The notes: generated by a model from the letters alone, not told the origin. A stretch of 64,000 nucleotides of DNA from Bacteroidales bacterium UBA6117 (GCA_002428385.1 DIWB01000003.1:366-64365); one strand, 5' to 3'. Counted from the stretch's first letter, positions 16,250 through 55,016 are shown. Translations and numbers: made by a program.

Positions 16250-16999
16250 TCACTTCATATGGTTAATCATGCTTGCAGAGAAGCCGGCGCCGAAACCATT
16301 GTCGATATTGACAACAGTCACCCCTGAGGAACAGCTTGTAAGCATTGCCAGCAGCGCCGATATGCCTCCGAAACTTGCTCCGTATCCAACGCTTGTGGGA
16401 ACAGCGATAACGGGTGAGCTGACCAGTCCTCCGACAACACTTGCAAGGGCTCCCTCCATGCCGGCAATTACAATTACCACACGGCATTTCCTTATTTCGG
16501 GGAGTTTATCCACAAGGCGGTGTATGCCGGCAACGCCTGCATCATATATCCTGAGAACGTTGTTCCCGAGAAGTTCTGCAGTGACGGCAGCCTCTTCAGC
16601 AACCGGTATGTCGGAGGTGCCTGCAGTGATAACCGCAATAGCAGTTTCGGGCCGTTTCATTTCGCGGAAAGGGATGCTTATGATTCGTGCCTCCGGATAC
16701 CAGACGGCTTCGGGGAAAATTTCCTTCACCGCGTCGTACATTTCCCGGCCGGCCCTGGTTCCGATGACATTGTTCTTTTTCCCCGCCATCAGCCTGAAGA
16801 TTCCAATGACCTGGTCGGTAGTCTTCCCTGCGCAGTATACTATTTCAGGATACCCTGTCCTGATCTCCCGGTGATTATCAATTTTTGCATACCCGAGATC
16901 GGTAAACGGAAAGTCGTGCAGAATGTCGAGTGCTTCCTCTACGCTTTTACTTCCGTCTTTTATCTCCCTGAGGAGTGTTTCAATGTCGTCCCTGTTCAT
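16250..16999 (-). CDS. larB: Nickel-pincer cofactor biosynthesis protein LarB (NaAD carboxylase/hydrolase, PurE-like)
   Basis: 249 aa with DNHREIRTGYPEIVYCAGKT and a PurE-like ITAGTSDIPVAEEA...VIAGMEGALASVVGGL core. 4-nt overlap with larE. Confidence 0.9.
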   Translation of the reverse strand: MNRDDIETLLREIKDGSKSVEEALDILHDFPFTDLGYAKIDNHREIRTGYPEIVYCAGKTTDQVIGIFRLMAGKKNNVIGTRAGREMYDAVKEIFPEAVWYPEARIISIPFREMKRPETAIAVITAGTSDIPVAEEAAVTAELLGNNVLRIYDAGVAGIHRLVDKLPEIRKCRVVIVIAGMEGALASVVGGLVSSPVIAVPTSVGYGASFGGISALLAMLTSCSSGVTVVNIDNGFGAGFSASMINHMK

Positions 17000-17799
17000 G
17001 GTCTGGTGTTTTCAGGATCATAGGAGCCTGATCTGTATCCTTCGAGATCCAAAGATACATATCTGAATCCGATTTTCTTAAGTCCTGAGATAATAAGTTC
17101 TCTGTCAGGACTCTGAGTCATCTTGCTGAAATTGGCGGGGTGGCATTCTATCCGGGCCAGGTCGCCATGTATCCGGACCCTGGTTCCCGGATATCCGCTG
17201 GTTCGAAAGAAATCTTCCGCCTGTTCAACCATAAGGATCATTTCGGAAGTTACTGCAGTGTTATAAGGGATCCTGGTGAGCAGGCACGCCATAGAAGGTT
17301 TAGAGGCGATATTAAGTCCTTCTGCGGCCAGTAAATCCCTGATGTCCTGTTTTGTGAGGCCAGCTTCCATCAGGGGGCTTCTGACGCCCAGCTCCTTAAG
17401 CGCCCTGATTCCAGGTCGGTGAGAGTTGGCATCATCAGCGTTGGAGCCGTCGACGACGTGACTGAAACCGTTGTCAGCAGCAAAGCCAAGCAGTTGTCCG
17501 AACAGTATCTTTTTGCAGATGTAGCACCTGTCGGGTGGATTATTCCGGATTGGTTCAGGGAAGGAAAGATCCAATATACGGTGGCTGATTTTATGTGCCC
17601 TCGCAAATTCAGTAGCTTCTTCAATTTCCGAATCAGGCATATAGGGGGTACTGAGGGTGACTCCAGTTATTTTTTCTTTCAGGAGTGAATGTGCGCGAAG
17701 AAGGAGATATGAACTATCCACACCTCCTGAAAAACCTACGACAAAGGAATTCAGATCAATAAGCAAACGGTCAAGTTTATCCCTTTTGTTTTCGGTCAT
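16996..17799 (-). CDS. larE: LarE sulfur-insertion ATP pyrophosphatase
   Basis: PP-loop GFSGGVDSSYLL, 267 aa, with cysteines in DRCYICKK and SMACLLTRIPY. 4-nt overlaps with both larC and larB. Confidence 0.9.
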   Translation of the reverse strand: MTENKRDKLDRLLIDLNSFVVGFSGGVDSSYLLLRAHSLLKEKITGVTLSTPYMPDSEIEEATEFARAHKISHRILDLSFPEPIRNNPPDRCYICKKILFGQLLGFAADNGFSHVVDGSNADDANSHRPGIRALKELGVRSPLMEAGLTKQDIRDLLAAEGLNIASKPSMACLLTRIPYNTAVTSEMILMVEQAEDFFRTSGYPGTRVRIHGDLARIECHPANFSKMTQSPDRELIISGLKKIGFRYVSLDLEGYRSGSYDPENTRP

Positions 17800-18980
17800 G
17801 ATTGCTTTTTGTTGTTTACAATAACCGAGATGATATTGTTATAAACCTCCTTGACGGGGATGTTTCTTTCCGATGCAATCTTCCTGCATTCTTCGTATTC
17901 TGGTTTGACGGAGACCTGTTTCCCGCCGAAGAACGACCTTTTCACCGTTACCTCGCCGTAGATTGTGTCAACCTTAAAGGTTTCCCTTGCAAGTGTGTCC
18001 TTATTAAATTCAAATGATCTCATTCCGAGCGTGGTGGACTCTGTGAAGATTATCTCTTTCAGCTTGTTTTCCGAACCCTTTTCGCATATAACATTAAGAA
18101 TTACGCCGGGTCGTCCCTTTTTCATTATGATCTGAGTGAAAAATACATCAGCAGCGCCGGCCCTGAAAAGATTATCGGAAATATGGTCGTAAAACTCCGG
18201 ATTCATGTCGTCAATATTTGCTTCCAGCAAGACGGCCCTGTGTCCCCGCGCATTATCTCCGGCTGCTTCGCCCATAAAGACCCTGAGGAGGTTGGGTACC
18301 ACGGGATGTTCCTTATGTCCAATTCCGTAGCCTGTTTTTGTTATGGTAAGCTCTGGTCCGGTGCCGAATTTTGTCCCGAGGGCAGTGACAATTGCAGCTC
18401 CTGTAGGTGTTGTAGCCTCAAAATCAACGCCTCCGACCCTGACAGGAATTCCTTTTATTATTTCGGCTGTAGCCGGCGCCGGCACCGGCAGCCTGCCATG
18501 ATCGCAATTAACGAAGCCGCTCCCGAGTTCAACCTCCGAAACGTATACCGCTTCAACCCCAAGTGCAACGAAGCATATTGCGGCACCGGTAACGTCAATT
18601 ATTGAATCGACTGCTCCTACCTCGTGGAAATGAACCACTTCGAGTGGTATTCCGTGAACGGCAGCCTCAGCCTGTGCAATTTTCATGAATATCTTCATGC
18701 TCAATTCTTTAACCTTATCAGGCAAAGCTGATCCCGTGATTATCTTTTCAATATCCGATAAGTGCCTGTGTACATGTTCGTGCCTGGTTTGCCTTACGGT
18801 TATTCTAGTTCCTGTGATCCCGTGGCGCTGGCTCTTTTCTGAGATAAGTTCCCATCCCTCCAGTCGGAGCTTTTCAAGTTCGGATCTGAGAAATCCGGTA
18901 TCAATGCCAAGGTCGACCATGGCGCCGAGGTTCATGTCGCCGCTAATACCCGAAAAACAATCATAGTACAGTACTTTCAT
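17796..18980 (-). CDS. larC: LarC nickel insertase (DUF111 family)
   Basis: N-terminus MKVLYYDCFSGISGDMNLGAMVDLG is the DUF111/LarC signature. Single 394-aa ORF, no frameshift needed. Confidence 0.9.
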   Translation of the reverse strand: MKVLYYDCFSGISGDMNLGAMVDLGIDTGFLRSELEKLRLEGWELISEKSQRHGITGTRITVRQTRHEHVHRHLSDIEKIITGSALPDKVKELSMKIFMKIAQAEAAVHGIPLEVVHFHEVGAVDSIIDVTGAAICFVALGVEAVYVSEVELGSGFVNCDHGRLPVPAPATAEIIKGIPVRVGGVDFEATTPTGAAIVTALGTKFGTGPELTITKTGYGIGHKEHPVVPNLLRVFMGEAAGDNARGHRAVLLEANIDDMNPEFYDHISDNLFRAGAADVFFTQIIMKKGRPGVILNVICEKGSENKLKEIIFTESTTLGMRSFEFNKDTLARETFKVDTIYGEVTVKRSFFGGKQVSVKPEYEECRKIASERNIPVKEVYNNIISVIVNNKKQS

Positions 18981-19156: not shown

Positions 19157-20077
19157 ATGAGAAGGAGGGAGTTTTTCAGAAAGTCTGTCGGGGCCGGTAT
19201 TGCTGCCGGTGCTGCTTTCAGCATTGGAGGATACAATAAATTATGGGCAGCAGGGACTTCTCCGGAAAAATATGATATGGTTGCAATAATGGGTGGTGAA
19301 CCCGATGCAATGTTCGATCTGGGTATTCAGGAACTTGGCGGTATGGGAACATTCATCCGGAAAGGACAGAAGGTTCTTGTCAAACCAAATATAGGCTGGG
19401 ACGTTGTTCCGGAACTGGCAGCCAATACAAATCCCAATCTTGTAAAAAGGATTATTGAACACTGTTTCAGGGCAGGAGCAAAGGAAGTATATGTTTTCGA
19501 TCATACCTGCGACAACTGGGTCAACACTTACAAGAATTCGGGGATCGAAAAAGCTGCAAAAGCTGCAGGCGCCAAGGTAGTTCCCGGCAATACCGAGAAC
19601 TATTACCAGGAGATCGAGATACCCACAGCTGTGAAGCTTAAGAAAGCCAAGGTTCACGAACTCATTATGGAGACAGATGTATTTATAAATGTTCCCATAC
19701 TGAAAGACCATAACTCAACCAGAATGACAGCCTGTCTTAAAAACATGATGGGAGTAGTCTGGGACAGGGGGTACTGGCATTCGAATGATCTTCACCAGTG
19801 TATAGCCGATTATGCTCTGTTTGAAAAGAAACCCGTCCTCAATATCATTGATTGCTACAACGTGATGGTAAAGCATGGGCCGCAGGGTGTTTCAAAAGAG
19901 GATGTTGTCCAGATGAAATCACAGATCATAACCTCCGACTGGGTTGCAGGTGATGCCGCGGCCGCGAAAATGCTCAGCATTGATCCCCGGCGGGTTGATT
20001 ATATTCCCATTGCTCATAAGATGGGCCTTGGCAACATGAACCTTGAATCGCTCAATATCAAGCGTATAAAAATGTAA
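19157..20077 (+). CDS. Tat-signal DUF362 domain protein
   Basis: Twin-arginine leader MRRREFFRKSVGAGIAAGAAFS. The body (VLVKPNIGW..., PILKDHNSTRMTACLKNMMG, IIDCYNVMVKHGPQG) matches my memory of DUF362. Confidence 0.8.
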   Translation: MRRREFFRKSVGAGIAAGAAFSIGGYNKLWAAGTSPEKYDMVAIMGGEPDAMFDLGIQELGGMGTFIRKGQKVLVKPNIGWDVVPELAANTNPNLVKRIIEHCFRAGAKEVYVFDHTCDNWVNTYKNSGIEKAAKAAGAKVVPGNTENYYQEIEIPTAVKLKKAKVHELIMETDVFINVPILKDHNSTRMTACLKNMMGVVWDRGYWHSNDLHQCIADYALFEKKPVLNIIDCYNVMVKHGPQGVSKEDVVQMKSQIITSDWVAGDAAAAKMLSIDPRRVDYIPIAHKMGLGNMNLESLNIKRIKM

Positions 20078-20083
20078 TTTGTA

Positions 20084-21646
20084 ATGACATCTTCCTTCCT
20101 CAGGAAATTAAGGATTTTGTTTTCTTCCATTGTCCTGATTTGTTTTTTTTTCGTTTTTGCTGACTTCATGTCAGTAATACCGGAGAAATACATTAATTCT
20201 CTTTTATACCTTCAGTTTGTTCCTTCGGCGCTTAAGTATATCAACCTGACGACAATGGCAGCAGGAGGGTTCATCATTGTTCTCCTGCTCACACTTCTTA
20301 CCGGCAGGACATATTGTTCATTTCTTTGTCCGCTGGGGATCGGACAGGATCTCTTCAGCCGTATCGGAGGCAGGATTAAAAGGAAATTCAGGAGATTCGG
20401 ATATAAAAAGCCGCATACAATAATAAGATACTCCCTGCTTGTCCTGACTCTTGGGACCGCTATTTTCTATGGACTTTACCTGGTTACTCTTCTTGATCCC
20501 TACAGCATATTCGGTAGGTTTATGACTTATCTGGGCGAGCCTGTGATTTTGCTTATCAATAATTTTCTGACCTGGCTGCTCGGAAAATTCGATGTATACA
20601 CTCTCCATCATGTTGATATCAGGGGATTCAACCCGATGACATATGCTGTTCCTGTCGCATTCTTTCTGCTTGTCGGGACAATGTCCTTTGTGAAAGGAAG
20701 GCTTTATTGCAATATGATCTGCCCGGTAGGCACTCTTCTGGGCCTGATTTCGAAGGTCTCGATATTCAGGGTCAAATTCAGCGAAAGCAAATGCACCCGT
20801 TGCGGACGTTGTTCCGTACGATGCAAAGCATCATGCATCGATTTCCTTAATTATAACATAGATGTCAGCCGCTGTGTAAATTGCTTCAACTGTATTGATG
20901 TTTGTCCTGAAAAGGCGCTTTCCTATAGTTTTATCGCCTCAAAGGAAAAGCCCGCCAATACTGACGAAGGCAGGCGGAAATTTGTTGCAGGATCGCTTCT
21001 GATGCTTTTAGGGATTACCACCAGTGCCAGAAACCAGGATCAGGAAGGAGCGCCTGTCCCGCGTAAAGAGTCGACTGTAAAAGAGCCAAGAAATTTTCCG
21101 GTATGCCCTCCCGGAGCAGGATCGATGGAGGAATTCACAAAATATTGTACGGCATGTTCCCTCTGCATCAATGCTTGTCCGAACAATGTCCTTCAACCTG
21201 CCGTGATGCAGTATGGCATTGCCGGATTCATGCAGCCGGTTATGGATTATCACAGGAGCTTCTGTACTTTTAACTGCACCGTCTGTACTGAAATATGTCC
21301 CACAAATGCCCTCAAACCTCTGCTCCTTGAAGCTAAAAAACTTACTCAGTTAGGTAAGGTTTTCTTTATAAAGGACAATTGCATAGTCAAGACCGAAAAG
21401 ACAGCCTGTGGAGCCTGCTCCGAAGCCTGTCCCACAAAAGCAGTGTATATGGTGCCTTACGAGGGTAATCTGGTGATACCGGAGACCAATCAGGACATCT
21501 GTATCGGATGCGGACATTGCGAATATGCTTGCCCGGTTACACCTTACAAAGCCATATTCGTCGATGGAAATCCTGTTCACATGGCTGCCGCCAAACCCGA
21601 AATCAAAGAAGCCGAAATCACAACCCCGGAGGAGTTTCCTTTCTGA
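20084..21646 (+). CDS. Membrane-anchored polyferredoxin (NapH/MauN-like N-domain plus multiple 4Fe-4S motifs)
   Basis: TM helices carrying CSFLCPLG and CNMICPVG. Then CTRCGRCSVRC, CVNCFNCIDVCP, CTACSLCINACP, CTVCTEICP, CGACSEACP and CIGCGHCEYACP. Starts 6 nt after the DUF362 gene. Confidence 0.8.
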   Translation: MTSSFLRKLRILFSSIVLICFFFVFADFMSVIPEKYINSLLYLQFVPSALKYINLTTMAAGGFIIVLLLTLLTGRTYCSFLCPLGIGQDLFSRIGGRIKRKFRRFGYKKPHTIIRYSLLVLTLGTAIFYGLYLVTLLDPYSIFGRFMTYLGEPVILLINNFLTWLLGKFDVYTLHHVDIRGFNPMTYAVPVAFFLLVGTMSFVKGRLYCNMICPVGTLLGLISKVSIFRVKFSESKCTRCGRCSVRCKASCIDFLNYNIDVSRCVNCFNCIDVCPEKALSYSFIASKEKPANTDEGRRKFVAGSLLMLLGITTSARNQDQEGAPVPRKESTVKEPRNFPVCPPGAGSMEEFTKYCTACSLCINACPNNVLQPAVMQYGIAGFMQPVMDYHRSFCTFNCTVCTEICPTNALKPLLLEAKKLTQLGKVFFIKDNCIVKTEKTACGACSEACPTKAVYMVPYEGNLVIPETNQDICIGCGHCEYACPVTPYKAIFVDGNPVHMAAAKPEIKEAEITTPEEFPF

Positions 21647-21686
21647 TACAGGGGAATAACTAAATTCTTGTCAAACATGATTTTTG

Positions 21687-21719
21687 TTTGCCTGAGCTAT
21701 TTTTAAGCTGTTAATTTTG
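21687..21719 (+). promoter_or_regulatory. Candidate Bacteroidota promoter for the mce-mmd-cit operon
   Basis: TTTG (21687..21690), 21 nt, then TAATTTTG (21712..21719), 33 nt before the mce ATG. Both boxes match the TTTG / TAnnTTTG consensus. Confidence 0.5.
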
Positions 21720-21752
21720 CTTAAATTATAGTCATCAAAAACATGCTCTTTT

Positions 21753-22178
21753 ATGAAACCTGCACATATAGAACATATTGGTATTGCAGTAGCCAGTCTG
21801 GCAGAATCGGTGGCGTTTTACGAGAAGGTTCTCGGCCTGAAATGCTATAATATTGAGGAGGTTCCGGATCAGAAAGTCAGAACTGCTTTCTTTATGGTCG
21901 GACAGACAAAGATTGAACTGCTTGAGTCGACTGACCCTCAGGGTACAATTGCCCGCTTTATTGAGAAGAGGGGGGAGGGCATCCACCACATTGCATTTGC
22001 CGTGGAAAACATTGAGGAAAAGCTAAGGCATGCGGAAAAGGAGGGAGTCAGACTGATCGACACCAAGCCAAGGAAAGGCGCAGAAGGCCTTGAAATTGCA
22101 TTCCTTCACCCGGGGTCGGCACACGGGGTACTTATCGAGCTTTGCGAACATCCCGGTCACGAACAGCCGGAAAAGTAA
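21753..22178 (+). CDS. mce: Methylmalonyl-CoA epimerase (VOC/glyoxalase fold)
   Basis: 141 aa. [23 protein letters not shown] ... KIELLE ... GEGIHHIAF ... GVLIEL is typical of the epimerase. It precedes the carboxyltransferase. Confidence 0.85.
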
Positions 22179-22225
22179 TACAGGATATTCTACTTCATAA
22201 ACAGTACACAAAACACACATTATAT

Positions 22226-23785
22226 ATGGATAGCCAGGATAAGGTTAAGCAGCTCATCGAACTGAGAGAAAAAGCGCGTCTCGGTGGAGGGCTGCAAAAG
22301 ATTGAGGATCAGCATTCCAAGGGAAGACTGACAGCCAGGGAAAGGATAAATATTCTACTCGATGAAGGAAGCTTTGAAGAGTTTGACATGTTTGTCACTC
22401 ATCGTACCGAGGATTTCGGTATGGGTAAGAAGAAATTCCTTACCGACGGGGTGATAACAGGTCATGGGACCATCGACGGGAGGGTGGTGTATGTGTTTGC
22501 CCAGGACTTTACCATTTTCGGCGGGTCGTTGTCTGAAGCCTTCTCGCAGAAAATTTGCAAAGTGATGGATCAGGCGATGAAGGTGGGAGCGCCGGTAATC
22601 GGAATAAACGACAGCGGCGGAGCGCGTATCCAGGAAGGGGTGAAAAGTCTTGCAGGCTATGCTGAGATTTTTGAAAGAAATATTCTTGCTTCCGGGGTTA
22701 TCCCCCAGATTTCTGCGGTATTTGGACCATGTGCGGGAGGAGCGGTTTATTCCCCGGCCCTCACCGACTTCATAATCATGAGCGAGAAAAACAGTTATAT
22801 GTTCGTAACCGGCCCCAAAGTTACCAGGACGGTTACCGGAGAGGAAATATCAACTGAAAACCTTGGAGGTTCAGGCGTTCACGGAACAAAATCGGGTGTA
22901 GCTCATTTTATTGTGGACGAAGAGGAACAGGGGCTTTTGCTTATCCGTAAACTGCTGAGCTATCTCCCGCAGAATAATATGGAGGAACCTCCTCTTACCG
23001 AATGCGACGATCCGATCGACCGCAAGGAAGATGATCTTAACAGCCTGATACCGGAAAACCCAAATCAGCCCTATGATGTTAAGGACATTATTTTCAAAAT
23101 CGTTGATTACAGCGAGTTCCTTGAGATTCACGCGGGATATGCAAGGAATATAGTTGTCGGTTTTGCCAAGATGGCAGGAATGCCGGTGGGTATTGTGGCC
23201 AATCAGCCAAACTTCCTGGCAGGCGTCCTTGATATCGATGCATCGAGAAAGGCAGCAAGGTTTGTGAGATTCTGCGATGCTTTCAATGTCCCCATCGTAA
23301 CACTTGTTGATGTGCCGGGCTTTCTGCCTGGAAGCGGGCAGGAATATGGCGGCATAATTATCCATGGCGCCAAGCTTATGTTCGCCTACGGTGAAGCCAC
23401 TGTCCCAAAAGTCACTGTTACATTGAGGAAATCATACGGCGGGGCACATTGCGTCATGTCGTCCAAACAACTCCGGGGTGATGTAAATTACGCCTGGCCT
23501 TCGGCTGAGATTGCGGTAATGGGGCCATCTGGTGCAATTGAAATTCTCGAGGGAAAAGCTCTTGCTGAAATAAGCGATCAGGAAGAAAAAGCGGCTTTCA
23601 TTGCCGAAAAGGAGAATGAATACCGTACAAAGTTCGCCAATCCTTATGAGGCGGCAAAATACGGCTTTATTGATGACGTGATCGAGCCCCGGAACACCCG
23701 CTTCAGGATAATTAGGGCTCTGAGAACCCTTGCTACCAAAAAGGATCCGGGACCTATGAAGAAACATGCAAACATACCATTGTAA
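22226..23785 (+). CDS. mmdA: Methylmalonyl-CoA decarboxylase alpha subunit (acyl-CoA carboxyltransferase)
   Basis: The carboxyltransferase N-terminus starts at [22 protein letters not shown]...[20 protein letters not shown]. The track start 22142 would overlap mce; ATG 22226 gives about 519 aa. Confidence 0.9.
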
Positions 23786-23798
23786 ACAGAGTCCGGCC

Positions 23799-24161
23799 AT
23801 GAGTTATCTTTCAATAAATCTTTTAAGCCTCTACCTTGATGATGCAGCTGCTGTGCGACTGCTGATAGTGCTTAACATTATCCTGTTATCAATCATATTG
23901 CTGTGGTTTATAATCAGGGTACTGGTTCCCCTGATAAGGAAACTTCTTGCAGGGCGTAAGGAAAAGGCGGCTGTTGCTGAAACCATTATCACTGGAGCCC
24001 CGGAGACCGGCTCAGATGCAGAAGCCGCTATTGCCACAGCTCTTTACTTGTATTTCAATGAGATACACGACGAAGAGAGCGACATCATCACTGTTAAGAG
24101 GGTGTCGAAGACTTATTCGCCATGGAGCTCAAAACTATACAGTATGAGAAATTTGCGTTGA
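23799..24161 (+). CDS. mmdD: OadG-like small membrane subunit (decarboxylase delta/gamma chain)
   Basis: One TM helix (LLIVLNIILLSIILLWFIIRVLV), an Ala-rich linker and a C-terminal VKRVSKTYSPWSSKLYSMRNL tail, as in Bacteroidota OadG-like subunits. Sits between mmdA and the BCCP gene. The internal ATG 23799 is preferred over 23766. Confidence 0.65.
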   Translation: MSYLSINLLSLYLDDAAAVRLLIVLNIILLSIILLWFIIRVLVPLIRKLLAGRKEKAAVAETIITGAPETGSDAEAAIATALYLYFNEIHDEESDIITVKRVSKTYSPWSSKLYSMRNLR

Positions 24162-24208
24162 TTTTATTCAGACAGGGAATCTTAAATTGATCATGTAAGA
24201 AAAAAAAT

Positions 24209-24628
24209 ATGAAGAGCTTCAAGTTTTTAGTAAAAGGGAAAAAATACGATGTGAGTATTCTGTCCCTTACCGGAAATGTGGCAAAGCTGAAGGTGAATGA
24301 TGAGGATTACGTTGTTGAGATAGAAAGGAACGTTAAACCCGATAAAACCCCGATTGTTGTCAGGTCTGCAATCAAGGAGCCCCAAAAGGATATAGAGAAG
24401 AAAACGGGAGGCCCGAAAACGGAAGTTAAATCTCCTCTTCCCGGGATCGTTGTAAGGATATTTGTAAAACCGGGAGATACTGTTGCAAAGAACCAGCCCC
24501 TCTTCACCCTTGAGGCAATGAAGATGGAAAATGAGATCAAAGCGGAGCGCGACGGCATGATCTCAGGTGTGAAAGTTATAGCAGGACAGACAGTTCTGCA
24601 GGATGAGGTTATAATGGAAATGGATTGA
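24209..24628 (+). CDS. mmdC: Biotin carboxyl carrier subunit
   Basis: Biotinylation motif LEAMKMENEI within a C-terminal biotinyl/lipoyl fold, 139 aa. Confidence 0.9.
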   Translation: MKSFKFLVKGKKYDVSILSLTGNVAKLKVNDEDYVVEIERNVKPDKTPIVVRSAIKEPQKDIEKKTGGPKTEVKSPLPGIVVRIFVKPGDTVAKNQPLFTLEAMKMENEIKAERDGMISGVKVIAGQTVLQDEVIMEMD

Positions 24629-24660
24629 TCTGCTTTTAACACATCTTTAGTCACGGTATT

Positions 24661-25890
24661 ATGGATAACAACTGTGCGACATCAGGAAATTCAGGTCCCA
24701 AAATCAGGTCCGACTGCCAGATTACTCTCTTTCTGAAGAGCGAGGGAGGTATCTCTACTGATCTGAAATCGAAGGTGGAAACCCTTTATGGGGAATCCAT
24801 CAGGACGCTGTGCTCGGAAATGCTCGGCTATTTCGGGATTGAGAACGCTCATCTTGCAATAGATGATTCCGGAGGACTGCCTTTTGTTATTATGGCTCGG
24901 GTGGAAGCCGTTGTAAAGAAACTGACCGCATCGGAGATGAGTTTTCTTCCTGATTTCCCTGAGGCCAACAAGTATTCAACCCTGCGCGACAGATTTCGCT
25001 TTTCAAGACTATATCTGCCGGGGAACACTCCAAGCCTTATGATAAATGCGGGGCTTCACTCAGCCGACGGGATCATCCTCGACCTGGAAGACTCGGTAGC
25101 GCCCGACAGGAAGGACGAGGCAAGGATTCTTGTGAGGAATGCTCTCCGCCAGCTCGATTTCAGGGGTGCGGAAAGGATGGTGAGGATAAATCAGGGCGAC
25201 AGGGGAATGGACGATCTTGATTCCGTGATACCCCACAATGTGAATCTCATCCTGATACCAAAATGCGAGACTGCTGAAAACGTGAAGGAAGTCGCAATGC
25301 GTATCAGGGATATAAAGGCAGGATCCGGATCAGACAATCCCGTTTATCTGATGCCAATAATTGAGAGTGCCATGGGAGTGGAAATGGCATTCGATATTGC
25401 CAGAGCTGATGAAAGTGTTGTTGCACTGGCAGTAGGGCTGGAGGATCTTACCGCCGATATGGGCGTGAGAAGGACAAATGAGGGGAATGAGACACTCTAT
25501 GCCAGGACAAGGATCGTAAATGCTGCCAGGGCCGCCCGGATACAGCCGATTGATTCGGTTTTCCCCGATGTTGGTGATATGGAAGGTCTCCGCCGTAATG
25601 TTGCGGTCTCAAAATCACTCGGATTTGAGGGCATGGGTTGCATTCACCCCAGGCAGGTTGCAGTAATAAGACAGGGTTTTGCTCCGGAACAGGAAGAAAT
25701 TGAAAAAGCGAGGAAAATTGTACTGTCTTATGAAGACGCTCTGTCGAAAGGTCTGGGGGTGGTTGCCCTGGGTTCAAAAATGATTGATCCCCCGGTTGTT
25801 GCCCGGGCCATGAAGGCTATCGATCTGGCTGTAAGGCTCGGTCTCCTTGATTCTGGATGGAGAGATGAATCCTCGGCTGTTGTGAATTAA
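24661..25890 (+). CDS. citE: Citrate lyase acyl-carrier (CitD-like) fused to citrate (citryl-CoA) lyase beta subunit (CitE)
   Basis: The first ~95 aa align by eye with CitD (IRSDCQITL..., SKVETLYGESIRT, IDDSGGLPFVIMARVEAVVKKL). The rest is HpcH/CitE-like (RLYLPGNTPSLM, GIILDLEDSVAPDRK, IPKCET, GFEGMGCIHPRQV). Confidence 0.8.
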   Translation: MDNNCATSGNSGPKIRSDCQITLFLKSEGGISTDLKSKVETLYGESIRTLCSEMLGYFGIENAHLAIDDSGGLPFVIMARVEAVVKKLTASEMSFLPDFPEANKYSTLRDRFRFSRLYLPGNTPSLMINAGLHSADGIILDLEDSVAPDRKDEARILVRNALRQLDFRGAERMVRINQGDRGMDDLDSVIPHNVNLILIPKCETAENVKEVAMRIRDIKAGSGSDNPVYLMPIIESAMGVEMAFDIARADESVVALAVGLEDLTADMGVRRTNEGNETLYARTRIVNAARAARIQPIDSVFPDVGDMEGLRRNVAVSKSLGFEGMGCIHPRQVAVIRQGFAPEQEEIEKARKIVLSYEDALSKGLGVVALGSKMIDPPVVARAMKAIDLAVRLGLLDSGWRDESSAVVN

Positions 25891-25902
25891 TCAACTTAAA
25901 TA

Positions 25903-27468
25903 TTGCTTATCATGTCGATTCCGACTGTAATAAATGCCGTGGGAAGGGCTGTACCGGCAGAAATTAACGGCAAACCTGCAATCCCTTTCAGGGGAGTCGG
26001 AAAATACAGGCCTTCGGGAAATAAGTATGGTCCTCCCATTCCTTCATGCATCGATTTTCCTGACGATGGCAACAAGGTTGTTTCAACTCTGGAGGAGGCT
26101 CTCCTGAGATGCGGCATCCGCGATGGGATGACAATATCCACTCATCATCACCTCAGGGATGGAGACCTGGTCAGCAACAGGATCTTCGATATAGCATCAA
26201 AGATGGGAGTGAAGGACCTTGTCTGGTTCCCTTCTGCTTCTTTCCCATGTAATGACCCTGTTATCAAGTACCTCGAGGATGGAACTATAAACCGGATCGA
26301 AGGAAGCATGAATGGTCCGCTCGGAAGGTTCGTTTCGGAAGGAAGGATGAAGGGTACCGCGGTACTGAGGTCGCACGGGGGACGTGTTCAGGCAATCCAG
26401 GACGGTGAGGTGAAAATCGATATAGCGGTTCTTGCTGCACCAACAGCCGATTCTTTTGGAAACGCAAGGGGAACCGGAGGAAGTTCTGCTTGCGGGGTAC
26501 TCGGCTATGCCAAGGCCGATTCGATGTATGCCGGCAAGGTGATTGTTGTTACAGATAATCTCGTCGATATCCCGTGCTTCCCGATGGAAATTGAGGGCAA
26601 CTATGTCGACTATGTGGTGGTTGTCGACAAGATCGGGATACCGGAAAAGATTGTGTCAGGAACCACCCGGATTACAAAAAGTCCCGACAGGCTGCTTATT
26701 GCGGAGCTTACCGCGGCATTTCTTGAGAAGACTGGCATCTTGAAGGATGGTGTCAGAATGCAGGCCGGCGCAGGGGGTACATCTCTTGCTATCGGGGTGT
26801 TTATTCATGAGATACTCAGGAAAAAGGGCTGGAAATCGAAATTCGGATTCGGAGGCAGTACAAGGTATATGGTTGAAATGCTTGAGAGCGGGCAGATGGA
26901 ATACATCCTCGACGCACAGGTTTTTGACCTCGAATCGGTTGACTCTATTGCCAGAAATCCGAACCATGTACCGTATTCCGTTTTCAACGCATACAATCAT
27001 CACTCAAAGGGTAACCTCACCAGCATGATGGATATTATGATACTCGGGGCAACCGAGGTCGATCTGAATTTCAACGGGAATGTGGTGACACACTCCGACG
27101 GTTACCTGCTTCATGGCATAGGAGGATGGCAGAATTGCCTTCATGCCCGGAACGTAATACTTCCGGTGCCATTGTTCCGCGACAGGATACCTGTAATAGT
27201 TGACGAGGTTACAACCCTTTGCGGCCCGGGAGAACTAATCGATGCAGTTATCACAGAGAGGGGTATTGCAATAAATCCCCTGAGGCAGGATCTTATTGAT
27301 AGTGTGAAGAACAGCGGCCTGCCGGTCACTACAATTGAAGAGCTGAAGATGGAAGCAGAAAGGATCTGCGGGAAGCCTTCAAAGCCTCAGTTCGATGACA
27401 AAATTGTTGCTGCAATAAAATGGGTCGACGGCACAATTATTGATACAGTCAGAAAAATCAAAAAGTAA
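25903..27468 (+). CDS. citF: Citrate lyase alpha subunit (citrate CoA-transferase)
   Basis: 521 aa. [28 protein letters not shown] and overall length match CitF. The start may be ATG 25912. Confidence 0.9.
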
Positions 27469-27479
27469 AGTATTGTCAA

Positions 27480-27641
27480 ATGGAAAGATACAAGTGTATC
27501 ATCTGCGGATTCGTATATGATCCTGAAGAAGGAGATCCTCATTCCGGAATTGCCCCGGCTACTGATTTCAGCAATCTGCCTGATGATTACAAATGCCCTG
27601 TTTGCGGGGCGGGCAAGGATGAGTTTTTTGCCGCCGACTGA
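27480..27641 (+). CDS. Rubredoxin (53 aa, absent from the ORF track)
   Basis: My translation: [53 protein letters not shown]. It has both CxxCG knuckles and the FxxLPDDxxCPxCG signature. Starts 11 nt after the citF stop. Confidence 0.9.
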
Positions 27642-27660
27642 CACATACAAATGAAGGTGA

Positions 27661-29133
27661 TTATTTCTCCCCGGTAACGTCAGGAATCCTTCCTATCACA
27701 TCAATAAGCAGGTCCCAGAACATCTCCACTGTATCAATTTTTATCTTTTCTTCAGGTGTATGAGCCCCCCTGATGGTTGGACCTATTGAAATCATGTCTA
27801 TCCCATGGAATTTCTCATAAATCAGTCCGCATTCCAGACCGGCATGTATTGCCCTGACCAGCGGCTTACGCCCAAAAAGCTTTTCGTACGATTCAGTTGT
27901 TATCCTGAGTATTTCCGATCTTAAGTCCGGTTTCCATCCGGGGTAGCCGTCAGAATGCAACACTTCGGCATTTGCCAGATTAAGACATTTTTCTACCATC
28001 CCGGCAACTTCATGCTTCGACGACTTCACAGAGCTTCGCTGAGTAGTTACAATCCGTATCCTGTTGTTATCTTCAAAACTGACTGAGGCCAGGTTTGTGG
28101 AGGTCTCGACCAGGTCTTCCATGTCTTCCGACCAGGATATAACGCCGTGGGGGCAACAATCCAGCGCCCTGATCAGTTTATCCTGGCTTTCCCTGTCCAT
28201 GACCGTAACAGGAGCCTGGATTTCAGTGATGGCAAGTTTCAGATCCTTTTCTGTTTCAGCAAATTCTTCCGCAAGCCTGATTCCGCTTTCCCCGATCCAT
28301 TTTATTATCTCTTTTCCGTGGGCCCGATCGGCAGCAATCACTGCAAAAGCTTCCCGCGGAATCGCATTCCTGAGATTGCCACCGTTGAAGCTGTTTACCG
28401 ATATTCCGAATTTATAGCCAAGGGAGGACAGAATTGAGTTCATTATCTTTACGGAATTGCCGTATCCTTTGTGGATCTCATCCCCGGAATGGCCACCGCG
28501 AAGTCCGGTCAGGGAGATCTTGAAACCAATGCTCCCTTCGCTGGCAGGGATGCTTTTGTAATAAAAGTCTCCAACTGTATCGATACCCCCGGCACTTCCG
28601 ATGTAAAGGATTCCTTCATCCTCCGAATCGAGGTTGAGAAGCGTCTTTCCTTCAAAAAAACCAGGTTTCAGCGCGATGGCGCCAGTCATTCCGGATTCCT
28701 CATCAACAGTGAAGAGGCATTCGATCCTGCCTGTTTTTATTGTCTGGTCAGTGAGGATGGCAAGCTGCGACGCAATTCCTATGCCGTCGTCGGCACCCAG
28801 AGTCGTCCCTCTGGCAGCAACATGGCCATCAATTATATAAGGAATGATGGGATCGGTGAGCCAATTGTGAGGGTAATCGGCATTTTTTTCTCCCACCATG
28901 TCCATGTGACTCTGCAGAACAATGCTTTTCCGGAGTTCATATCCCGGTGAGGGCGGCCTGGTAATAAGAATATTACCGATTGCGTCTTCCTTTGATTCGA
29001 GTTTATGCTCCGCTGCAAAATTGAGAAGATATTTTCTGATCTTACCTTCATTTTTGCTCAAACGCGGTATCCTGCATATCTCCTCGAAATAGATCCAGAT
29101 TGGCGCTGGATTTAAATGAGATAAGGTACTCAT
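27661..29133 (-). CDS. pepD: Aminoacyl-histidine (Xaa-His) dipeptidase, M20 family
   Basis: N-terminus LSHLNPAPIWIYFEEICRIPRLSKNE, LQSHMDMV, GADDGIG and 490 aa are typical of PepD. Confidence 0.9.
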   Translation of the reverse strand: MSTLSHLNPAPIWIYFEEICRIPRLSKNEGKIRKYLLNFAAEHKLESKEDAIGNILITRPPSPGYELRKSIVLQSHMDMVGEKNADYPHNWLTDPIIPYIIDGHVAARGTTLGADDGIGIASQLAILTDQTIKTGRIECLFTVDEESGMTGAIALKPGFFEGKTLLNLDSEDEGILYIGSAGGIDTVGDFYYKSIPASEGSIGFKISLTGLRGGHSGDEIHKGYGNSVKIMNSILSSLGYKFGISVNSFNGGNLRNAIPREAFAVIAADRAHGKEIIKWIGESGIRLAEEFAETEKDLKLAITEIQAPVTVMDRESQDKLIRALDCCPHGVISWSEDMEDLVETSTNLASVSFEDNNRIRIVTTQRSSVKSSKHEVAGMVEKCLNLANAEVLHSDGYPGWKPDLRSEILRITTESYEKLFGRKPLVRAIHAGLECGLIYEKFHGIDMISIGPTIRGAHTPEEKIKIDTVEMFWDLLIDVIGRIPDVTGEK

Positions 29134-31045: not shown

Positions 31046-32959
31046 TTAACCCAGTTTCATCTTCTCGATCTCTTCAAGGTTCCTCTCATTGCAGACATCC
31101 TTGGCATTGGGAGTGTACAGATAATCAATAAGTTCCTCATACCTGTCCATGATTTTGCCCCTGACGATCTTCATCGTTGAGTTCATCAGACCGTTTTCCT
31201 CATTGAATCCTTCATCGAGAATGCCGATAGCAACAGGAAGCCATCTCTGGGGGAACATATGGCCAAACTTCCCGTTTGTGCGATACTCATTCACTTCGTT
31301 CTCAAGGAGTGTCGCAACAGCTCTTCTCCCTTCGTCCGAATCGGCTGTCAGATTTTTCTCCTCCAGGTAAAATTTGAGAGCATACTGGTTAGGCACAACC
31401 AGGGCCACGGAATATGGCTTCTGATTGTTGTAAAGCATACACTGATCGATATACTTTGACTGTTCAGACATGGCTTCCTCAATTCCCTCCGGACTGAATT
31501 TCTCACCGTCGTCAGCAATAAGCAGGCTCTTGAATCGTCCGAGGACATAAAGGAATCCGTCAGGAGTCATGTAGCCCATGTCGCCAGTGTACAGCCAGCC
31601 GTCCTTTATCGTTTCTTTTGTAGCCGCCTCATTCTTCCAGTAACCGTGCATGACATTCCCGCCCCTGATTACTATTTCTCCTTTTTCTCCGACAGGGAGT
31701 TCCCGGCCTTCATCGTCGCAGATCCTGAGTTCCATATTGCTTACTATGGCACCTGAAGAACCAAGTTTATGCCTTGCTGCTGAATTCGACGAAATGACAG
31801 GCGAGGCTTCGCTTAATCCGTAACCCTGATACATGGGTACTCCAAGCGCATAGAAGAATCTCTGGAGTTCGATCTCGAGCAGGGCTCCTCCGCCGATGAA
31901 ATAATCAAGCTCGCCGCCAAAACTCTCTCTTATCTTCCTGAACAGGATCTTGTCATAAAGGTCGATTAGCGGTTTTTTCAGTTTCTGCAAGCCGCGCCCC
32001 TTGTTCCATCCTTCCTTGTTGTATGAATAGGATATCTTCATGGCATGATTGAAAAGAAGCTCAGTCAGTTTGCCCTTCTCCTTGATGCCCTTTTCTATAC
32101 TCTTCCTGAAATTCTTGGCTATTGCGGGGACACTCATAAGCAGATTTGGCTTGATCTCCTTCAGGCAGACCGGCATATTCCTGAGTGTTTCCAAAGGGGT
32201 CTTCCCGGTTTTCACCGACGCCACGCTGGCACCCTTGCCCATGAATGCATAAATAGCTGCGGTATGTCCGAATGAATGATCCCACGGAAGGATAAGCAGT
32301 GTTTTGTAGAATGAGGGAATGTCCATCAGACTGTATGACTGGTACACGTTGGTCACATAGTTGCTGTGGGTTAGAATGATACCCTTGGGATCGGCTGTGG
32401 TGCCCGAAGTATAGCAGATATTTGCAAAATCGGATGGTTTAATAGCTGAATAAAGCTCCTTGAATTTGTTTTTGTTCGCCGGTATTTCAAGCCACTCCCT
32501 TCCTGCCTTCCTGACCTCATTGAAATGGATTTCATTATTTTCATACTCCTCCTGGGTGTCGAAGTGGACAATCTTTTCGATGGTAAGACAGTCCTTAATC
32601 ACTGTTTTCAATTTCGCTGCCTGTATCGAGGAGGCCAGAACCATTCTTGATTCGGAATGATTTATCCGGAACTTGATCTCTTCATGATTGAGTTTTACCG
32701 AGAGGGGTACGTTGACAGCGCCGGCATAAAGAATCCCAAGTTCACCGATAACCCAGTTGTTGCGGCCTTCAGAGATAATACTCAGCCTGTCGCCCGGTTT
32801 GATGCCCATTGTGATGAGGCCGGCAGCAAACTCATATACCTGTTTCCTCGTTTCACCATAGGTGGTTCCTTCGTACTTTTCCTGAGGCTTTTCCCACAGA
32901 TAAACATTGCTTTCATACTTTTCAACACTCTCTTCGAAGAACTGAATTATTGATTTCAT
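31046..32959 (-). CDS. Long-chain acyl-CoA synthetase (AMP-forming)
   Basis: AMP-binding motif ICYTSGTTADPKGI, QGYGLSE, YTGDMGY. 637 aa. Confidence 0.85.
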   Translation of the reverse strand: MKSIIQFFEESVEKYESNVYLWEKPQEKYEGTTYGETRKQVYEFAAGLITMGIKPGDRLSIISEGRNNWVIGELGILYAGAVNVPLSVKLNHEEIKFRINHSESRMVLASSIQAAKLKTVIKDCLTIEKIVHFDTQEEYENNEIHFNEVRKAGREWLEIPANKNKFKELYSAIKPSDFANICYTSGTTADPKGIILTHSNYVTNVYQSYSLMDIPSFYKTLLILPWDHSFGHTAAIYAFMGKGASVASVKTGKTPLETLRNMPVCLKEIKPNLLMSVPAIAKNFRKSIEKGIKEKGKLTELLFNHAMKISYSYNKEGWNKGRGLQKLKKPLIDLYDKILFRKIRESFGGELDYFIGGGALLEIELQRFFYALGVPMYQGYGLSEASPVISSNSAARHKLGSSGAIVSNMELRICDDEGRELPVGEKGEIVIRGGNVMHGYWKNEAATKETIKDGWLYTGDMGYMTPDGFLYVLGRFKSLLIADDGEKFSPEGIEEAMSEQSKYIDQCMLYNNQKPYSVALVVPNQYALKFYLEEKNLTADSDEGRRAVATLLENEVNEYRTNGKFGHMFPQRWLPVAIGILDEGFNEENGLMNSTMKIVRGKIMDRYEELIDYLYTPNAKDVCNERNLEEIEKMKLG

Positions 32960-54887: not shown

Positions 54888-55016
54888 TCGATTTTGATTA
54901 ATACTGTTATGTCGTATGGTTCCGCAAGGCTTCTTGTACAAAAATGGAATCATTAACATATAACGATTTTGAATGACGTTTTGTGACAAAATATGGTCAA
55001 AAATCGTGCCGCCGGG

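What the first reader, a model, noticed from the sequence alone, without database searches (positions are those of the whole stretch)
21753..27641. Methylmalonyl-CoA decarboxylase operon with no Na+-pumping beta subunit gene; citrate lyase and rubredoxin follow instead
The order is mce, mmdA (carboxyltransferase), an OadG-like subunit and BCCP. In Bacteroides-type operons as I recall them, the next gene is the membrane beta subunit (OadB/MmdB). Here, 32 nt after the BCCP gene, the next genes are citD-citE (fused), citF and a rubredoxin, all with short gaps (10-40 nt). No OadB-like polytopic protein appears in the window. Either the pump subunit is encoded elsewhere, or the carboxyltransferase/BCCP pair works differently here. 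The linkage has a metabolic logic as inference: citrate goes to oxaloacetate, then down the reductive branch to succinate, methylmalonyl-CoA and propionate.
Basis: partly seen in the sequence, partly recalled or inferred. Interest (0 to 1): 0.6.

Follow-up and report, generated by a model that had tools for sequence, protein, structure and literature searches.

The report
Methylmalonyl-CoA decarboxylase operon missing its pump gene
An uncultured Bacteroidales bacterium has lost the sodium-pump gene from a conserved operon joining propionate-forming decarboxylase and citrate lyase genes, but the same genome carries an intact stand-alone pump gene elsewhere, so the oddity is a gene rearrangement and probably not new biochemistry.

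Summary
The window has mce, an mmdA-type carboxyltransferase, a 120-aa membrane anchor, BCCP, a citD-citE fusion, citF and rubredoxin on one strand. Gaps are 11-47 nt, and no OadB-like gene lies anywhere in the 64 kb.

Comparison with relatives changes the picture in two ways.
- The mmd-cit link is conserved. At least eight other Bacteroidales lineages carry mce-mmdA-anchor-BCCP-mmdB-citDE-citF, so the adjacency is not coincidental.
- The beta-less state is derived. mmdB (about 450 aa) was cleanly deleted between BCCP and citDE in this genus: the window species, a sister species, and a third lineage.

The remaining genes are under strong purifying selection (dN/dS 0.03-0.20).

I laid four conspecific MAG-sized runs on relatives' operons and traced a 59-nt match to an intact 378-aa OAD_beta gene. 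It is followed by a 43-aa OadG-related mini-subunit. It lies on another contig of the same assembly (GCA_002347435.1) and stands alone, without carboxyltransferase or BCCP genes.

My best reading (0.6) is that this paralogous beta/mini-gamma module supplies the pump in trans. That partnership is inferred, not shown. Split mmd loci are already known in Xylanibacter ruminicola. I rate this a new variant of a known kind, of moderate-to-low interest.

The parts
21712..21719 (+). Candidate Bacteroidetes-type -7 promoter box TAATTTTG, 34 nt upstream of mce
   Evidence: It is the only + strand TAnnTTTG between 19116 and 33125 (sequence). The motif count over the whole window is at chance level, so this is suggestive only.
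21753..22178 (+). mce, methylmalonyl-CoA epimerase (141 aa)
   Evidence: TIGR03081 scores 157 bits against a cutoff of 115. dN/dS is 0.14 against L011.
22226..23785 (+). mmdA-type 12S carboxyltransferase (519 aa)
   Evidence: PF01039 at E 3e-196; TIGR01117 at 778 bits, full length, below the 998.8 cutoff. It is 97% identical to L011 and 71-80% to 79 other Bacteroidota loci. dN/dS is 0.03.
23799..24161 (+). MmdD/OadG-like membrane anchor (120 aa, one N-terminal TM helix and a conserved C-terminal ...SKTYSPWSSK... domain)
   Evidence: It has no Pfam or NCBIfam hit itself. Positional orthologues hit PF04277 OAD_gamma. Between the two beta-less species, the TM part is 44/48 identical and the C-domain 45/47, while the linker is 14/25. 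dN/dS is 0.20.
24209..24628 (+). mmdC, biotin carboxyl carrier protein (139 aa, EAMKM biotinylation motif)
   Evidence: PF00364 at E 2.8e-19. dN/dS is 0.08. It is 40-50% identical to relatives, against a mean of 52% for other pairs at the same MmdA distance.
24629..24660 (.). 32-nt BCCP-citDE junction, the place where relatives carry the ~430-460-aa mmdB gene
   Evidence: Relatives L013, L015, L020, L034, L042, L091, L100 and L104 have OAD_beta between BCCP and citDE. When the MAG runs were laid on L020, the joint had 2224 own letters in place of 3472. No remnant can fit in 32 nt.
24661..25890 (+). citD-citE fusion: citrate lyase acyl carrier domain plus citryl-ACP lyase beta domain (409 aa)
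   Evidence: PF06857 covers residues 17-87 and PF03328 covers 117-330. TIGR01588 citE scores 256 (cutoff 443) and TIGR01608 citD scores 54 (cutoff 63.5). The motif GN.G...RSDC is invariant in 9 lineages. dN/dS is 0.09.
25912..27468 (+). citF, citrate lyase alpha subunit (518 aa)
   Evidence: TIGR01584 scores 513.4 against a cutoff of 501.45. The start is as called in 10 assemblies. dN/dS is 0.05.
27480..27641 (+). Rubredoxin (53 aa), 11 nt after citF, convergent with pepD
   Evidence: PF00301 at E 4e-23. It is syntenic in relatives, but in L091 and L013 opposite-strand VTC/DUF4956 genes separate it from citF.

Best explanation
The window holds a derived, beta-less version of an operon conserved in a clade of Bacteroidales: mce-mmdA-mmdD(OadG-like)-mmdC(BCCP)-mmdB-citDE-citF. 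In the ancestor of this genus the ~1.3-kb mmdB gene was deleted cleanly, leaving 32 nt between BCCP and citDE.

The epimerase, carboxyltransferase, membrane anchor and biotin carrier have stayed under strong purifying selection since then. They therefore still work as an enzyme.

The membrane step is carboxybiotin decarboxylation coupled to Na+ export. I propose it is supplied in trans by a paralogous stand-alone module elsewhere in the same genome. That module is a 378-aa OAD_beta protein translationally linked to a 43-aa OadG-related mini-subunit. The decarboxylase would thus be assembled from two loci, as already described for Xylanibacter ruminicola.

Citrate lyase is co-transcribed because it feeds the same route. 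Citrate gives acetate plus oxaloacetate. Oxaloacetate goes via malate, fumarate, succinate and succinyl-CoA to (R)- and then (S)-methylmalonyl-CoA, and finally to propionyl-CoA plus CO2 with Na+ extrusion. An Rnf complex in the same window handles redox balance.

Shown: the gene content, the deletion, the conserved linkage, the selection, and the presence of the second beta gene in the same genome.

Inferred: the physical and functional pairing of that beta with MmdA/D/C, co-transcription, and the citrate-to-propionate flux.
For: Gene content of the window:
- No OadB-like sequence lies in the window.

Conserved linkage, with mmdB present in relatives:
- L013, L015, L020, L034 and L042, L091, L100 and L104 all carry mmdB between BCCP and citDE.
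- Downstream synteny (rubredoxin, pepD, icd, 183-aa gene) is shared with L091.

The beta-less state is lineage-specific and old:
- L011 has it, at 89% nt and 97% aa identity in mmdA.
- A 92.5%-identical 39.9-kb contig has it too.

Purifying selection since the loss:
- dN/dS is 0.03-0.20 at dS 0.37-0.77.
- The anchor's TM helix is 44/48 identical while its linker is 14/25.

A second beta gene in the same genome:
- A 59-nt piece matched a ~4.9-kb contig in all four MAG-sized runs. Its depth equals that of the operon contig: 19.5 vs 20.4, 10.6 vs 9.2, 10.1 vs 9.7, and 6.2 vs 7.5-8.4.
- The flanking letters translate to LVSQVLKSRY...PFAIRLCTTE.
- They match P0309 exactly.
- P0309 lies on DDXF01000053.1 of GCA_002347435.1. 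The operon lies on DDXF01000250.1 of the same assembly.

Properties of P0309 and its neighbour:
- P0309 passes TIGR01109 (413 bits, cutoff 190.6).
- The 43-aa neighbour passes NF040909 OadG_rel_small (30.4, cutoff 25).
- P0309 keeps the GADGPT, AAYSYMALVP and NPxVGAAGxSAxP..RV motifs.

Precedent and context:
- mmd genes are split over two loci in X. ruminicola (PMC11575231).
- An Rnf cluster lies in the window.
Against: - P0309 is only 48% identical to the operon-type MmdB. It lacks that protein's N-terminal extension and a 17-aa insert.
- The same orphan beta plus mini-gamma module stands alone in other Bacteroidales. According to earlier unverified notes it occurs in roughly 400 genomes, including Clostridia where it sits under a Mn riboswitch. 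It may therefore have a function of its own, unrelated to Mmd.
- It already has its own mini-gamma, so it is unclear how the 120-aa anchor would dock.
- I could not search the whole genome. A third beta gene, a 5S/OadA-type carboxyltransferase or other partners cannot be excluded.
- No transcript or protein data exist for this organism.
- citC, citX and citG were not seen in the window or within 10 kb of the operon in relatives.
Confidence: 0.6

Rival explanations
1. The carboxyltransferase/BCCP pair no longer works with any pump. After losing mmdB it would hand the carboxyl group to another acceptor. One option is a 5S-type pyruvate carboxyltransferase (transcarboxylase-like, giving oxaloacetate). 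Another is a biotin carboxylase running in either direction (propionyl-CoA carboxylase or ATP-yielding decarboxylation). The orphan beta would then have an unrelated job.
For: - mmdB is deleted.
- BCCP and the anchor are somewhat more diverged than in other lineages at equal MmdA distance: 44 vs 52% and 42 vs 49%.
- The anchor's TM helix has lost the G-x-x-V-V-F pattern of relatives.
- The orphan beta family is stand-alone in many genomes.
- A second carboxyltransferase plus biotin-domain cluster exists on a 28.8-kb contig of the same MAG runs.
Against: - The membrane anchor is retained, and its TM helix is the best-conserved part together with the C-domain, with dN/dS 0.20. A soluble enzyme would not need it.
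- mce and the operon context are unchanged from pump-containing relatives.
- No 5S/OadA gene was seen in the window. The genome could not be searched.
Confidence: 0.2
2. Another beta subunit, which I did not detect, is the real partner. It could be a relocated mmdB orthologue or a third paralogue, and P0309 would be irrelevant.
For: My search of the own genome was at nucleotide level only. In a blastn simulation, a single reference detected only about a third to two thirds of other OadB genes. MAGs are also incomplete.
Against: - Four references were chosen so that together they detect all 68 OadB genes in my loci in simulation.
- They were laid on four conspecific MAG-sized runs.
- The only OadB-like piece found was the P0309 contig.
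- An operon-type orthologue (about 85% aa conserved within the clade) should have been at least as detectable as the 48%-identical paralogue that was found.
Confidence: 0.12
3. The mmd genes are decaying remnants after loss of the pump, and the adjacency to citrate lyase is incidental or an assembly artefact.
For: An essential subunit gene is missing from the operon. In the L011 assembly citDE is split by an apparent frameshift.
Against: - All genes are intact in 10 independent assemblies.
- dN/dS is 0.03-0.20.
- The linkage is conserved in at least eight further lineages.
- L011 is a long-read MAG, where single frameshifts are common errors.
Confidence: 0.03

Closest known systems
[quoted passage not shown]
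   Same: It has the same alpha carboxyltransferase, a small membrane anchor, a biotin carrier and an adjacent epimerase. 68 of 80 related Bacteroidota loci show both the mmdA gene and a full-length beta gene (more than 300 aa matched), in most directly after BCCP.
   Different: The beta gene is absent from the operon. The only beta-family gene found in the genome is a 48%-identical paralogue at another locus. Citrate lyase genes are appended to the operon.
Split methylmalonyl-CoA decarboxylase genes of Xylanibacter (Prevotella) ruminicola (PMC11575231)
   Same: Subunit genes for one decarboxylase are distributed over two loci, with mmdA/mmdC/epimerase at one and the beta and OadG-like genes at another.
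   Different: In X. ruminicola the beta locus also carries an mmdC copy and lies next to mutAB. Here the beta stands with only a 43-aa mini-gamma and a Bfd-like gene, with no propionate-pathway neighbour.
Citrate fermentation gene sets of Klebsiella pneumoniae and Vibrio cholerae (citCDEFXG with oadGAB)
   Same: Citrate lyase is genetically coupled to a biotin-dependent Na+-pump decarboxylase. CitF meets its equivalog cutoff.
   Different: The carboxyltransferase is an acyl-CoA (12S/MmdA) type, not the OadA (5S) type. CitD is fused to CitE. No citC/citX/citG lies nearby. This comparison with the enterobacterial clusters rests on my knowledge of them.
Orphan OAD_beta plus 'OadG-related small transporter subunit' modules (NCBIfam TIGR01109 plus NF040909)
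   Same: P0309 and its 43-aa neighbour pass both models. They stand alone like their homologues in L112, L126 and L127.
   Different: Here the module sits in a genome whose mmd operon has lost its own beta. That gives this orphan module an obvious candidate partner.
Biotin-dependent malonate decarboxylase of Malonomonas rubra (MadA-H)
   Same: On paper it has a similar parts list: a CitF-like acyl-ACP transferase, a CitD-like ACP, a carboxyltransferase, BCCP and an OadB-like pump (from my knowledge of that system).
   Different: The ACP here is fused to a CitE lyase domain. The carboxyltransferase is a single-chain MmdA type with an adjacent epimerase. The malonate beta model TIGR03136 scores far below its cutoff (156 vs 597). 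I considered this system and rejected it.

Membership tests
Na+-translocating methylmalonyl-CoA decarboxylase (Mmd) | Alpha subunit: 12S-type acyl-CoA carboxyltransferase | tested here: met
   PF01039 at E 3e-196. TIGR01117 mmdA aligns full length at 778 bits, though below the strict 998.8 cutoff. It is 71-80% identical to mmdA of operons that contain mmdB.
Na+-translocating methylmalonyl-CoA decarboxylase (Mmd) | Gamma subunit: biotin carrier with a biotinyl-lysine motif | tested here: met
   PF00364 covers residues 72-138, and EAMKM is present.
Na+-translocating methylmalonyl-CoA decarboxylase (Mmd) | Delta/OadG-like single-TM anchor | tested here: inconclusive
   The window protein has no OAD_gamma hit even at E<=1. 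Its positional orthologues hit PF04277 and share its C-terminal domain.
Na+-translocating methylmalonyl-CoA decarboxylase (Mmd) | Beta subunit (OAD_beta) encoded with the other subunits | tested here: not met
   No OadB-like sequence lies in the 64-kb window. There are 32 nt between BCCP and citDE.
Na+-translocating methylmalonyl-CoA decarboxylase (Mmd) | A beta subunit somewhere in the genome | tested here: met
   P0309 (378 aa) passes TIGR01109 with 413 bits (cutoff 190.6). It lies on DDXF01000053.1 of the same assembly as the operon contig DDXF01000250.1, and in all four conspecific MAG-sized runs. It is a paralogue, 48% identical to operon MmdB.
Na+-translocating methylmalonyl-CoA decarboxylase (Mmd) | Na+-dependent decarboxylation of (S)-methylmalonyl-CoA by the assembled complex | not testable with these tools
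   This needs biochemistry.
Citrate lyase CitDEF | Alpha subunit CitF | tested here: met
   TIGR01584 scores 513.4 against a cutoff of 501.45.
Citrate lyase CitDEF | Beta subunit CitE and ACP CitD | tested here: inconclusive
   The Pfam domains PF03328 and PF06857 are met. The equivalog models are below cutoff: citE 256 vs 443, citD 54 vs 63.5. The two are fused in one ORF in all 9 lineages aligned.
Citrate lyase CitDEF | Serine that carries the phosphoribosyl-dephospho-CoA prosthetic group | tested here: inconclusive
   An invariant RSDC motif (Ser17 in the window protein) sits where I recall the ESGD serine of enterobacterial CitD. The correspondence rests on memory of the reference sequence.
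Citrate lyase CitDEF | Accessory genes citC, citX and citG | not tested
   None is seen in the window parts I annotated, or within 10 kb of the operon in relatives.
Methylmalonyl-CoA:pyruvate transcarboxylase (12S/5S/1.3S) | 5S pyruvate/oxaloacetate carboxyltransferase subunit | not tested
   It was not seen among the window ORFs I annotated. The genome could not be searched.
Orphan OAD_beta plus OadG-related small subunit module | OAD_beta gene immediately followed by a ~40-50-aa single-TM OadG-related ORF, with no carboxyltransferase or BCCP nearby | tested here: met
   L118-L125 show beta, a 10-nt gap, a 43-aa ORF (NF040909 at 30.4, cutoff 25), then Bfd-like, CSD and DEAD-helicase genes.

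The most novel reading that the evidence does not exclude
In this genus the Mmd carboxyltransferase/biotin-carrier module has been re-plugged onto an 'orphan' beta plus mini-gamma Na+ pump. That pump family stands alone, with no known partner, in other Bacteroidales and reportedly in several hundred genomes. If true, this would give the orphan family its first assigned function. It would show that the pump and catalytic modules of biotin decarboxylases are interchangeable. It would also define a Bacteroidales citrate-to-propionate fermentation operon (mmd plus a fused CitDE-CitF) that has not been described in the literature I could search.
Probability: 0.4. Interest if true: 0.6.

Novelty: new variant of a known kind. 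Interest (0 to 1): 0.35.

Why it matters
The "missing pump" does not point to a new decarboxylase mechanism, because a beta-family gene exists elsewhere in the genome. The comparison still gives three useful results.

- A conserved Bacteroidales operon joins the propionate-forming Na+ pump to a CitD-CitE-fused citrate lyase. This predicts citrate-to-propionate/acetate fermentation in uncultured Bacteroidales of methanogenic consortia.
- The genus is a natural experiment. The operon's own beta was deleted while the other subunits stayed under selection.
- There is a concrete candidate partner for the widespread orphan beta/mini-gamma modules, whose function is unknown.

Each of these can be tested with standard biochemistry in E. 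coli or with genome surveys.

Tried and rejected
No direct HMM search of the own genome was possible.
- I looked for the own OadB among the best hits to a relative's operon-type OadB. I then looked up candidates P0079, P0123 and P0101 and cluster lists. All belonged to other organisms with complete operons. This was useful for synteny but not for the question.
- Read laying on L017 and L033 was uninformative. Not even the own mmdA aligned at 80% likeness.
- Two metagenome scans with the 30-mer and 24-mer flanks found nothing, although the same letters are present in JGI contigs fetched later.
- The first blastn simulation of sensitivity failed because long low-identity alignments masked short pieces. 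It was redone with stricter scoring.
- No RNA data were found. The only "RNA-Seq" runs holding related sequence contain a 39.9-kb contig and look like DNA.
- A malonate-decarboxylase (Mad-type) reading was rejected. The reasons are the CitE fusion, the adjacent epimerase and the low TIGR03136 score.
- Assembly artefact and coincidental adjacency were rejected.
- I could not establish whether relatives with complete operons also carry the orphan beta. Look-ups of P0147 and P0244 showed only that the module is stand-alone there too.


Full report
**What is there**

The region 21753-27641 holds seven same-strand ORFs with the following assignments.
- mce (TIGR03081, above cutoff).
- A 519-aa 12S-type carboxyltransferase. 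TIGR01117 mmdA aligns full length at 778 bits, below its strict cutoff of 998.8. PF01039 hits at E 3e-196.
- A 120-aa protein with one N-terminal TM helix and no family hit.
- A 139-aa BCCP with an EAMKM motif.
- A 409-aa CitD-CitE fusion (PF06857 plus PF03328).
- CitF (TIGR01584, 513 bits, cutoff 501).
- A 53-aa rubredoxin.

The gaps are 47, 13, 47, 32, 21 and 11 nt. Gene starts are those called in ten independent assemblies.

No OadB-like sequence exists anywhere in the window. tblastn with an operon-type OadB found nothing at E<=1e-5. tblastn with the 378-aa type gave only noise at E<=10.

**Origin**

The identical locus occurs in several kinds of record:
- metagenome assemblies of hydrocarbon-degrading methanogenic enrichment cultures (JGI records named TOLCLC, SCADCLC and Iso3TCLC, and runs labelled "hydrocarbon metagenome");
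- two NCBI MAGs (GCA_002347435.1 and GCA_002402645.1);
- four MAG-sized public runs of 3-4 Mb.

The nearest species representative is an uncultured Bacteroidales MAG (L011). Its mmdA is 97% identical at the amino-acid level and 89% at the nucleotide level.

**Comparison with relatives**

I fetched 80 loci around the closest mmdA homologues in one genome per species. I mapped the window proteins and a Rikenella OadB onto them.

In 68 loci tblastn found both mmdA and a full-length beta gene (more than 300 aa matched). In most of them the order is the canonical mce-mmdA-small-BCCP-oadB.

Five loci (L013, L015, L020, L034, L042) continue directly into citDE-citF. Three further lineages reached through protein look-ups (L091, L100, L104) have the same order, mce-mmdA-OAD_gamma-BCCP-OAD_beta-CitDE-CitF.

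In L091 the synteny continues as in the window, with rubredoxin, pepD (convergent), an Iso_dh gene and a 182-aa gene. Two opposite-strand genes (VTC, DUF4956) lie between citF and rubredoxin there, and a CitMHS/TrkA_C transporter follows.

Two conclusions follow.
- The mmd-citrate lyase linkage is an ancestral, conserved feature of this clade. It is not a coincidence of this window.
- The ancestral operon did contain mmdB, exactly between BCCP and citDE.

Only the window species and L011 lack it, together with a third lineage seen as a 39.9-kb contig that is 92.5% identical. Laying the MAG runs on L020 shows the corresponding joint, with 2224 own letters in place of 3472. The 32-nt junction leaves no room for a remnant. 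The rubredoxin is a syntenic neighbour brought next to citF in this lineage. It is not a fixed operon member.

**Are the remaining genes still in use?**

I compared the window with L011, two species that both lack mmdB.

| Gene | dN/dS |
|---|---|
| mmdA | 0.03 |
| citF | 0.05 |
| BCCP | 0.08 |
| rubredoxin | 0.08 |
| citDE | 0.09 |
| mce | 0.14 |
| membrane anchor | 0.20 |

dS ranges from 0.37 to 0.77.

Within the anchor, the N-terminal/TM part (44/48 identical) and the C-terminal domain (45/47) are conserved. The linker is not (14/25). A decaying remnant is excluded, and a membrane-anchored enzyme is indicated.

Relative to other lineages at the same MmdA distance, BCCP and the anchor are only modestly more diverged (44 vs 52% and 42 vs 49%). 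The anchor's TM helix has lost the G-x-x-V-V-F pattern seen in relatives.

**Is a beta subunit encoded elsewhere?**

Four runs of 3-4 Mb each hold 96-100% of the sampled words of the region. They behave as conspecific MAGs.

I laid their contigs on relatives' operons at 80% likeness.
- On L020 the own mmdA, citDE and citF aligned in pieces, and nothing aligned on oadB.
- L017 and L033 were uninformative.
- A simulation showed that one reference detects only about a third to two thirds of other OadB genes. The set L020 + L033 + L077 + L012 detects all 68.
- On L012 a 59-nt piece of oadB matched a ~4.9-kb contig in all four runs.

The depth of that contig matches the depth of the operon contig in each run.

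| Run | Beta contig depth | Operon contig depth |
|---|---|---|
| X1 | 19.5 | 20.4 |
| X2 | 10.6 | 9.2 |
| X4 | 10.1 | 9.7 |
| X5 | 6.2 | 7.5-8.4 |

Its flanking letters translate in frame to LVSQVLKSRY-[IGPIAIAAYSYMALVP.IQ]-PFAIRLCTTE, which is clearly OadB-like.

A protein search restricted to this 40-residue segment found a distinct 378-aa OAD_beta subfamily. Among cluster members, P0309 matches both flanks exactly.

P0309 is encoded on DDXF01000053.1 of GCA_002347435.1. That is the same assembly whose contig DDXF01000250.1 carries the operon. It is also in JGI 3300002219 and 3300002821, in an assembly of the same hydrocarbon metagenome run, and on a 4918-bp Logan contig. Both 30-mers read from the MAG runs occur exactly, 59 nt apart, in all eight P0309 loci. 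The genome therefore does encode an intact beta-family protein.

**What that gene is**

- P0309 passes TIGR01109 (413 bits, cutoff 190.6) and PF03977.
- It keeps the GADGPT, AAYSYMALVP and NPxVGAAGxSAxP..RV motifs. From my knowledge of Klebsiella OadB, these contain the residues needed for Na+ binding and carboxybiotin decarboxylation.
- It is only 48% identical to the operon-type MmdB. It lacks that protein's ~70-aa N-terminal extension and a 17-aa insert.
- Ten nt downstream, behind GAGGAA, lies a 43-aa single-TM ORF. It passes NF040909, "OadG-related small transporter subunit" (30.4, cutoff 25).
- Next come a 58-aa Bfd-like [2Fe-2S] gene, a cold-shock gene and a DEAD-box helicase. No carboxyltransferase or BCCP gene lies within 10 kb.
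- The same two-gene module stands alone in three other Bacteroidales contexts.

Earlier notes of this scan, which are unverified leads, report it as an orphan in some 400 genomes. These include Clostridia, where it sits under a manganese riboswitch. Other earlier notes independently describe complete mmd-mmdB-citDE-citF operons and two more beta-less ones in other genomes.

**How it most likely works**

My preferred explanation (confidence 0.6) is that the decarboxylase is now assembled from two loci.
- Mce epimerises (R)- to (S)-methylmalonyl-CoA.
- MmdA transfers the carboxyl group to biotin on MmdC.
- The 120-aa anchor holds the catalytic part at the membrane.
- The stand-alone beta/mini-gamma module decarboxylates carboxybiotin and exports Na+.

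Split mmd loci are documented in Xylanibacter ruminicola (PMC11575231).

Citrate lyase in the same transcription unit would supply oxaloacetate for the reductive branch to succinate and propionate. An Rnf cluster in the same window (55679-60653) fits the redox scheme described for propionate-forming Prevotella. I know that scheme only from the title and abstract of PMC10542786, listed.

The only Bacteroidetes-type -7 box on the + strand between 19116 and 33125 lies 34 nt before mce. No convincing terminator separates the genes. One transcript is therefore plausible but unproven.

Shown: gene content, the deletion, the conserved linkage, selection, and a second beta gene in the same genome.

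Inferred: the pairing, co-transcription and the metabolic flux.

**Rivals**

- The carboxyltransferase/BCCP pair works without a pump, as a transcarboxylase or with a biotin carboxylase, and the orphan beta does something else (0.2). In favour: the orphan family's wide stand-alone distribution and the changed TM helix. Against: the conserved membrane anchor.
- An undetected beta is the true partner (0.12). My genome search was at nucleotide level only.
- Decay or artefact (0.03). This is contradicted by selection and by the many independent assemblies.

**Comparison with what is known, and novelty**

The enzyme parts are ordinary members of the Mmd and citrate lyase families. The defining "beta encoded with the other subunits" feature is not met. 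The "beta in the genome" feature is met only by a paralogue.

I found no paper holding methylmalonyl-CoA decarboxylase, citrate lyase and Bacteroidales together. I also found none on orphan OadB modules. NCBIfam, however, already catalogues the small subunit.

I class the finding as a new variant of a known kind. The headline oddity has a mundane genomic explanation. The conserved mmd-citDE-citF operon and the candidate partner for an orphan pump family are worth a modest follow-up. Interest is 0.35.

Noticed in passing
L118:10001-11512 (= GCA_002418645.1 DIEN01000139.1; the same locus in L119-L125): The stand-alone OAD_beta (378 aa) is followed after 10 nt by a 43-aa OadG-related peptide and then a 58-aa Bfd-like [2Fe-2S] protein. 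About 740 nt of non-coding DNA lie upstream. The operon in the window likewise ends in a small iron protein (rubredoxin).
   Followed up: partly
window 55679-60653 (-): An Rnf cluster. Two Rnf-Nqr membrane subunits and an FMN_bind subunit were confirmed by Pfam. The adjacent ORFs at 57410-60653 have sizes fitting RnfD, RnfC and RnfB but were not scanned.
   Followed up: partly
window 53634-54989 (-): A 451-aa bacterial serpin (PF00079, E 1e-114).
   Followed up: no
window 16250-18980 (-): Three adjacent genes with AIRC, NAD_synthase/QueC-like and Ni_insertion (PF01969) domains. This is the pattern of LarB/LarE/LarC nickel-pincer cofactor synthesis. No lactate racemase-like gene was noted nearby.
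   Followed up: no
window 19157-21646 (+): A DUF362 protein with a Tat-like N-terminus and a 520-aa membrane polyferredoxin (NapH/NapG-like) lie directly upstream of mce. They are shared with L011 but not with other relatives, so the upstream flank was also rearranged in this genus.
   Followed up: partly
L011:10377-11664: In the sister-species long-read MAG, citDE is split into 376-aa and 70-aa ORFs by an apparent frameshift. It is likely a sequencing error but was not checked.
   Followed up: no
L027:9944-16641: In this relative the oadB gene lies about 5 kb downstream of BCCP, followed by a rubredoxin. Unidentified genes are inserted between, and no citDE/citF is present.
   Followed up: no
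A 28.8-kb contig of run X1 (pieces): A second carboxyltransferase gene has a biotinyl domain about 2 kb downstream in the same genome. It is probably an ATP-dependent acyl-CoA carboxylase cluster. I could not read it.
   Followed up: no
Runs X18 and X22 laid on window 21600-27700: Runs labelled RNA-Seq from a biogas fermenter hold contigs of 39.9 kb, 7.3 kb and 10.5 kb that are about 92% identical to the window. They cover both strands' genes, so they behave like DNA and cannot serve as expression evidence.
   Followed up: partly
L091:19505-21283: In a relative with the complete operon, a CitMHS/TrkA_C-type transporter follows the icd and HD-like genes downstream of the citrate lyase genes. 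It is a candidate citrate carrier. The window has an acyl-CoA synthetase-like gene (31046-32959, -) at that place instead.
   Followed up: no
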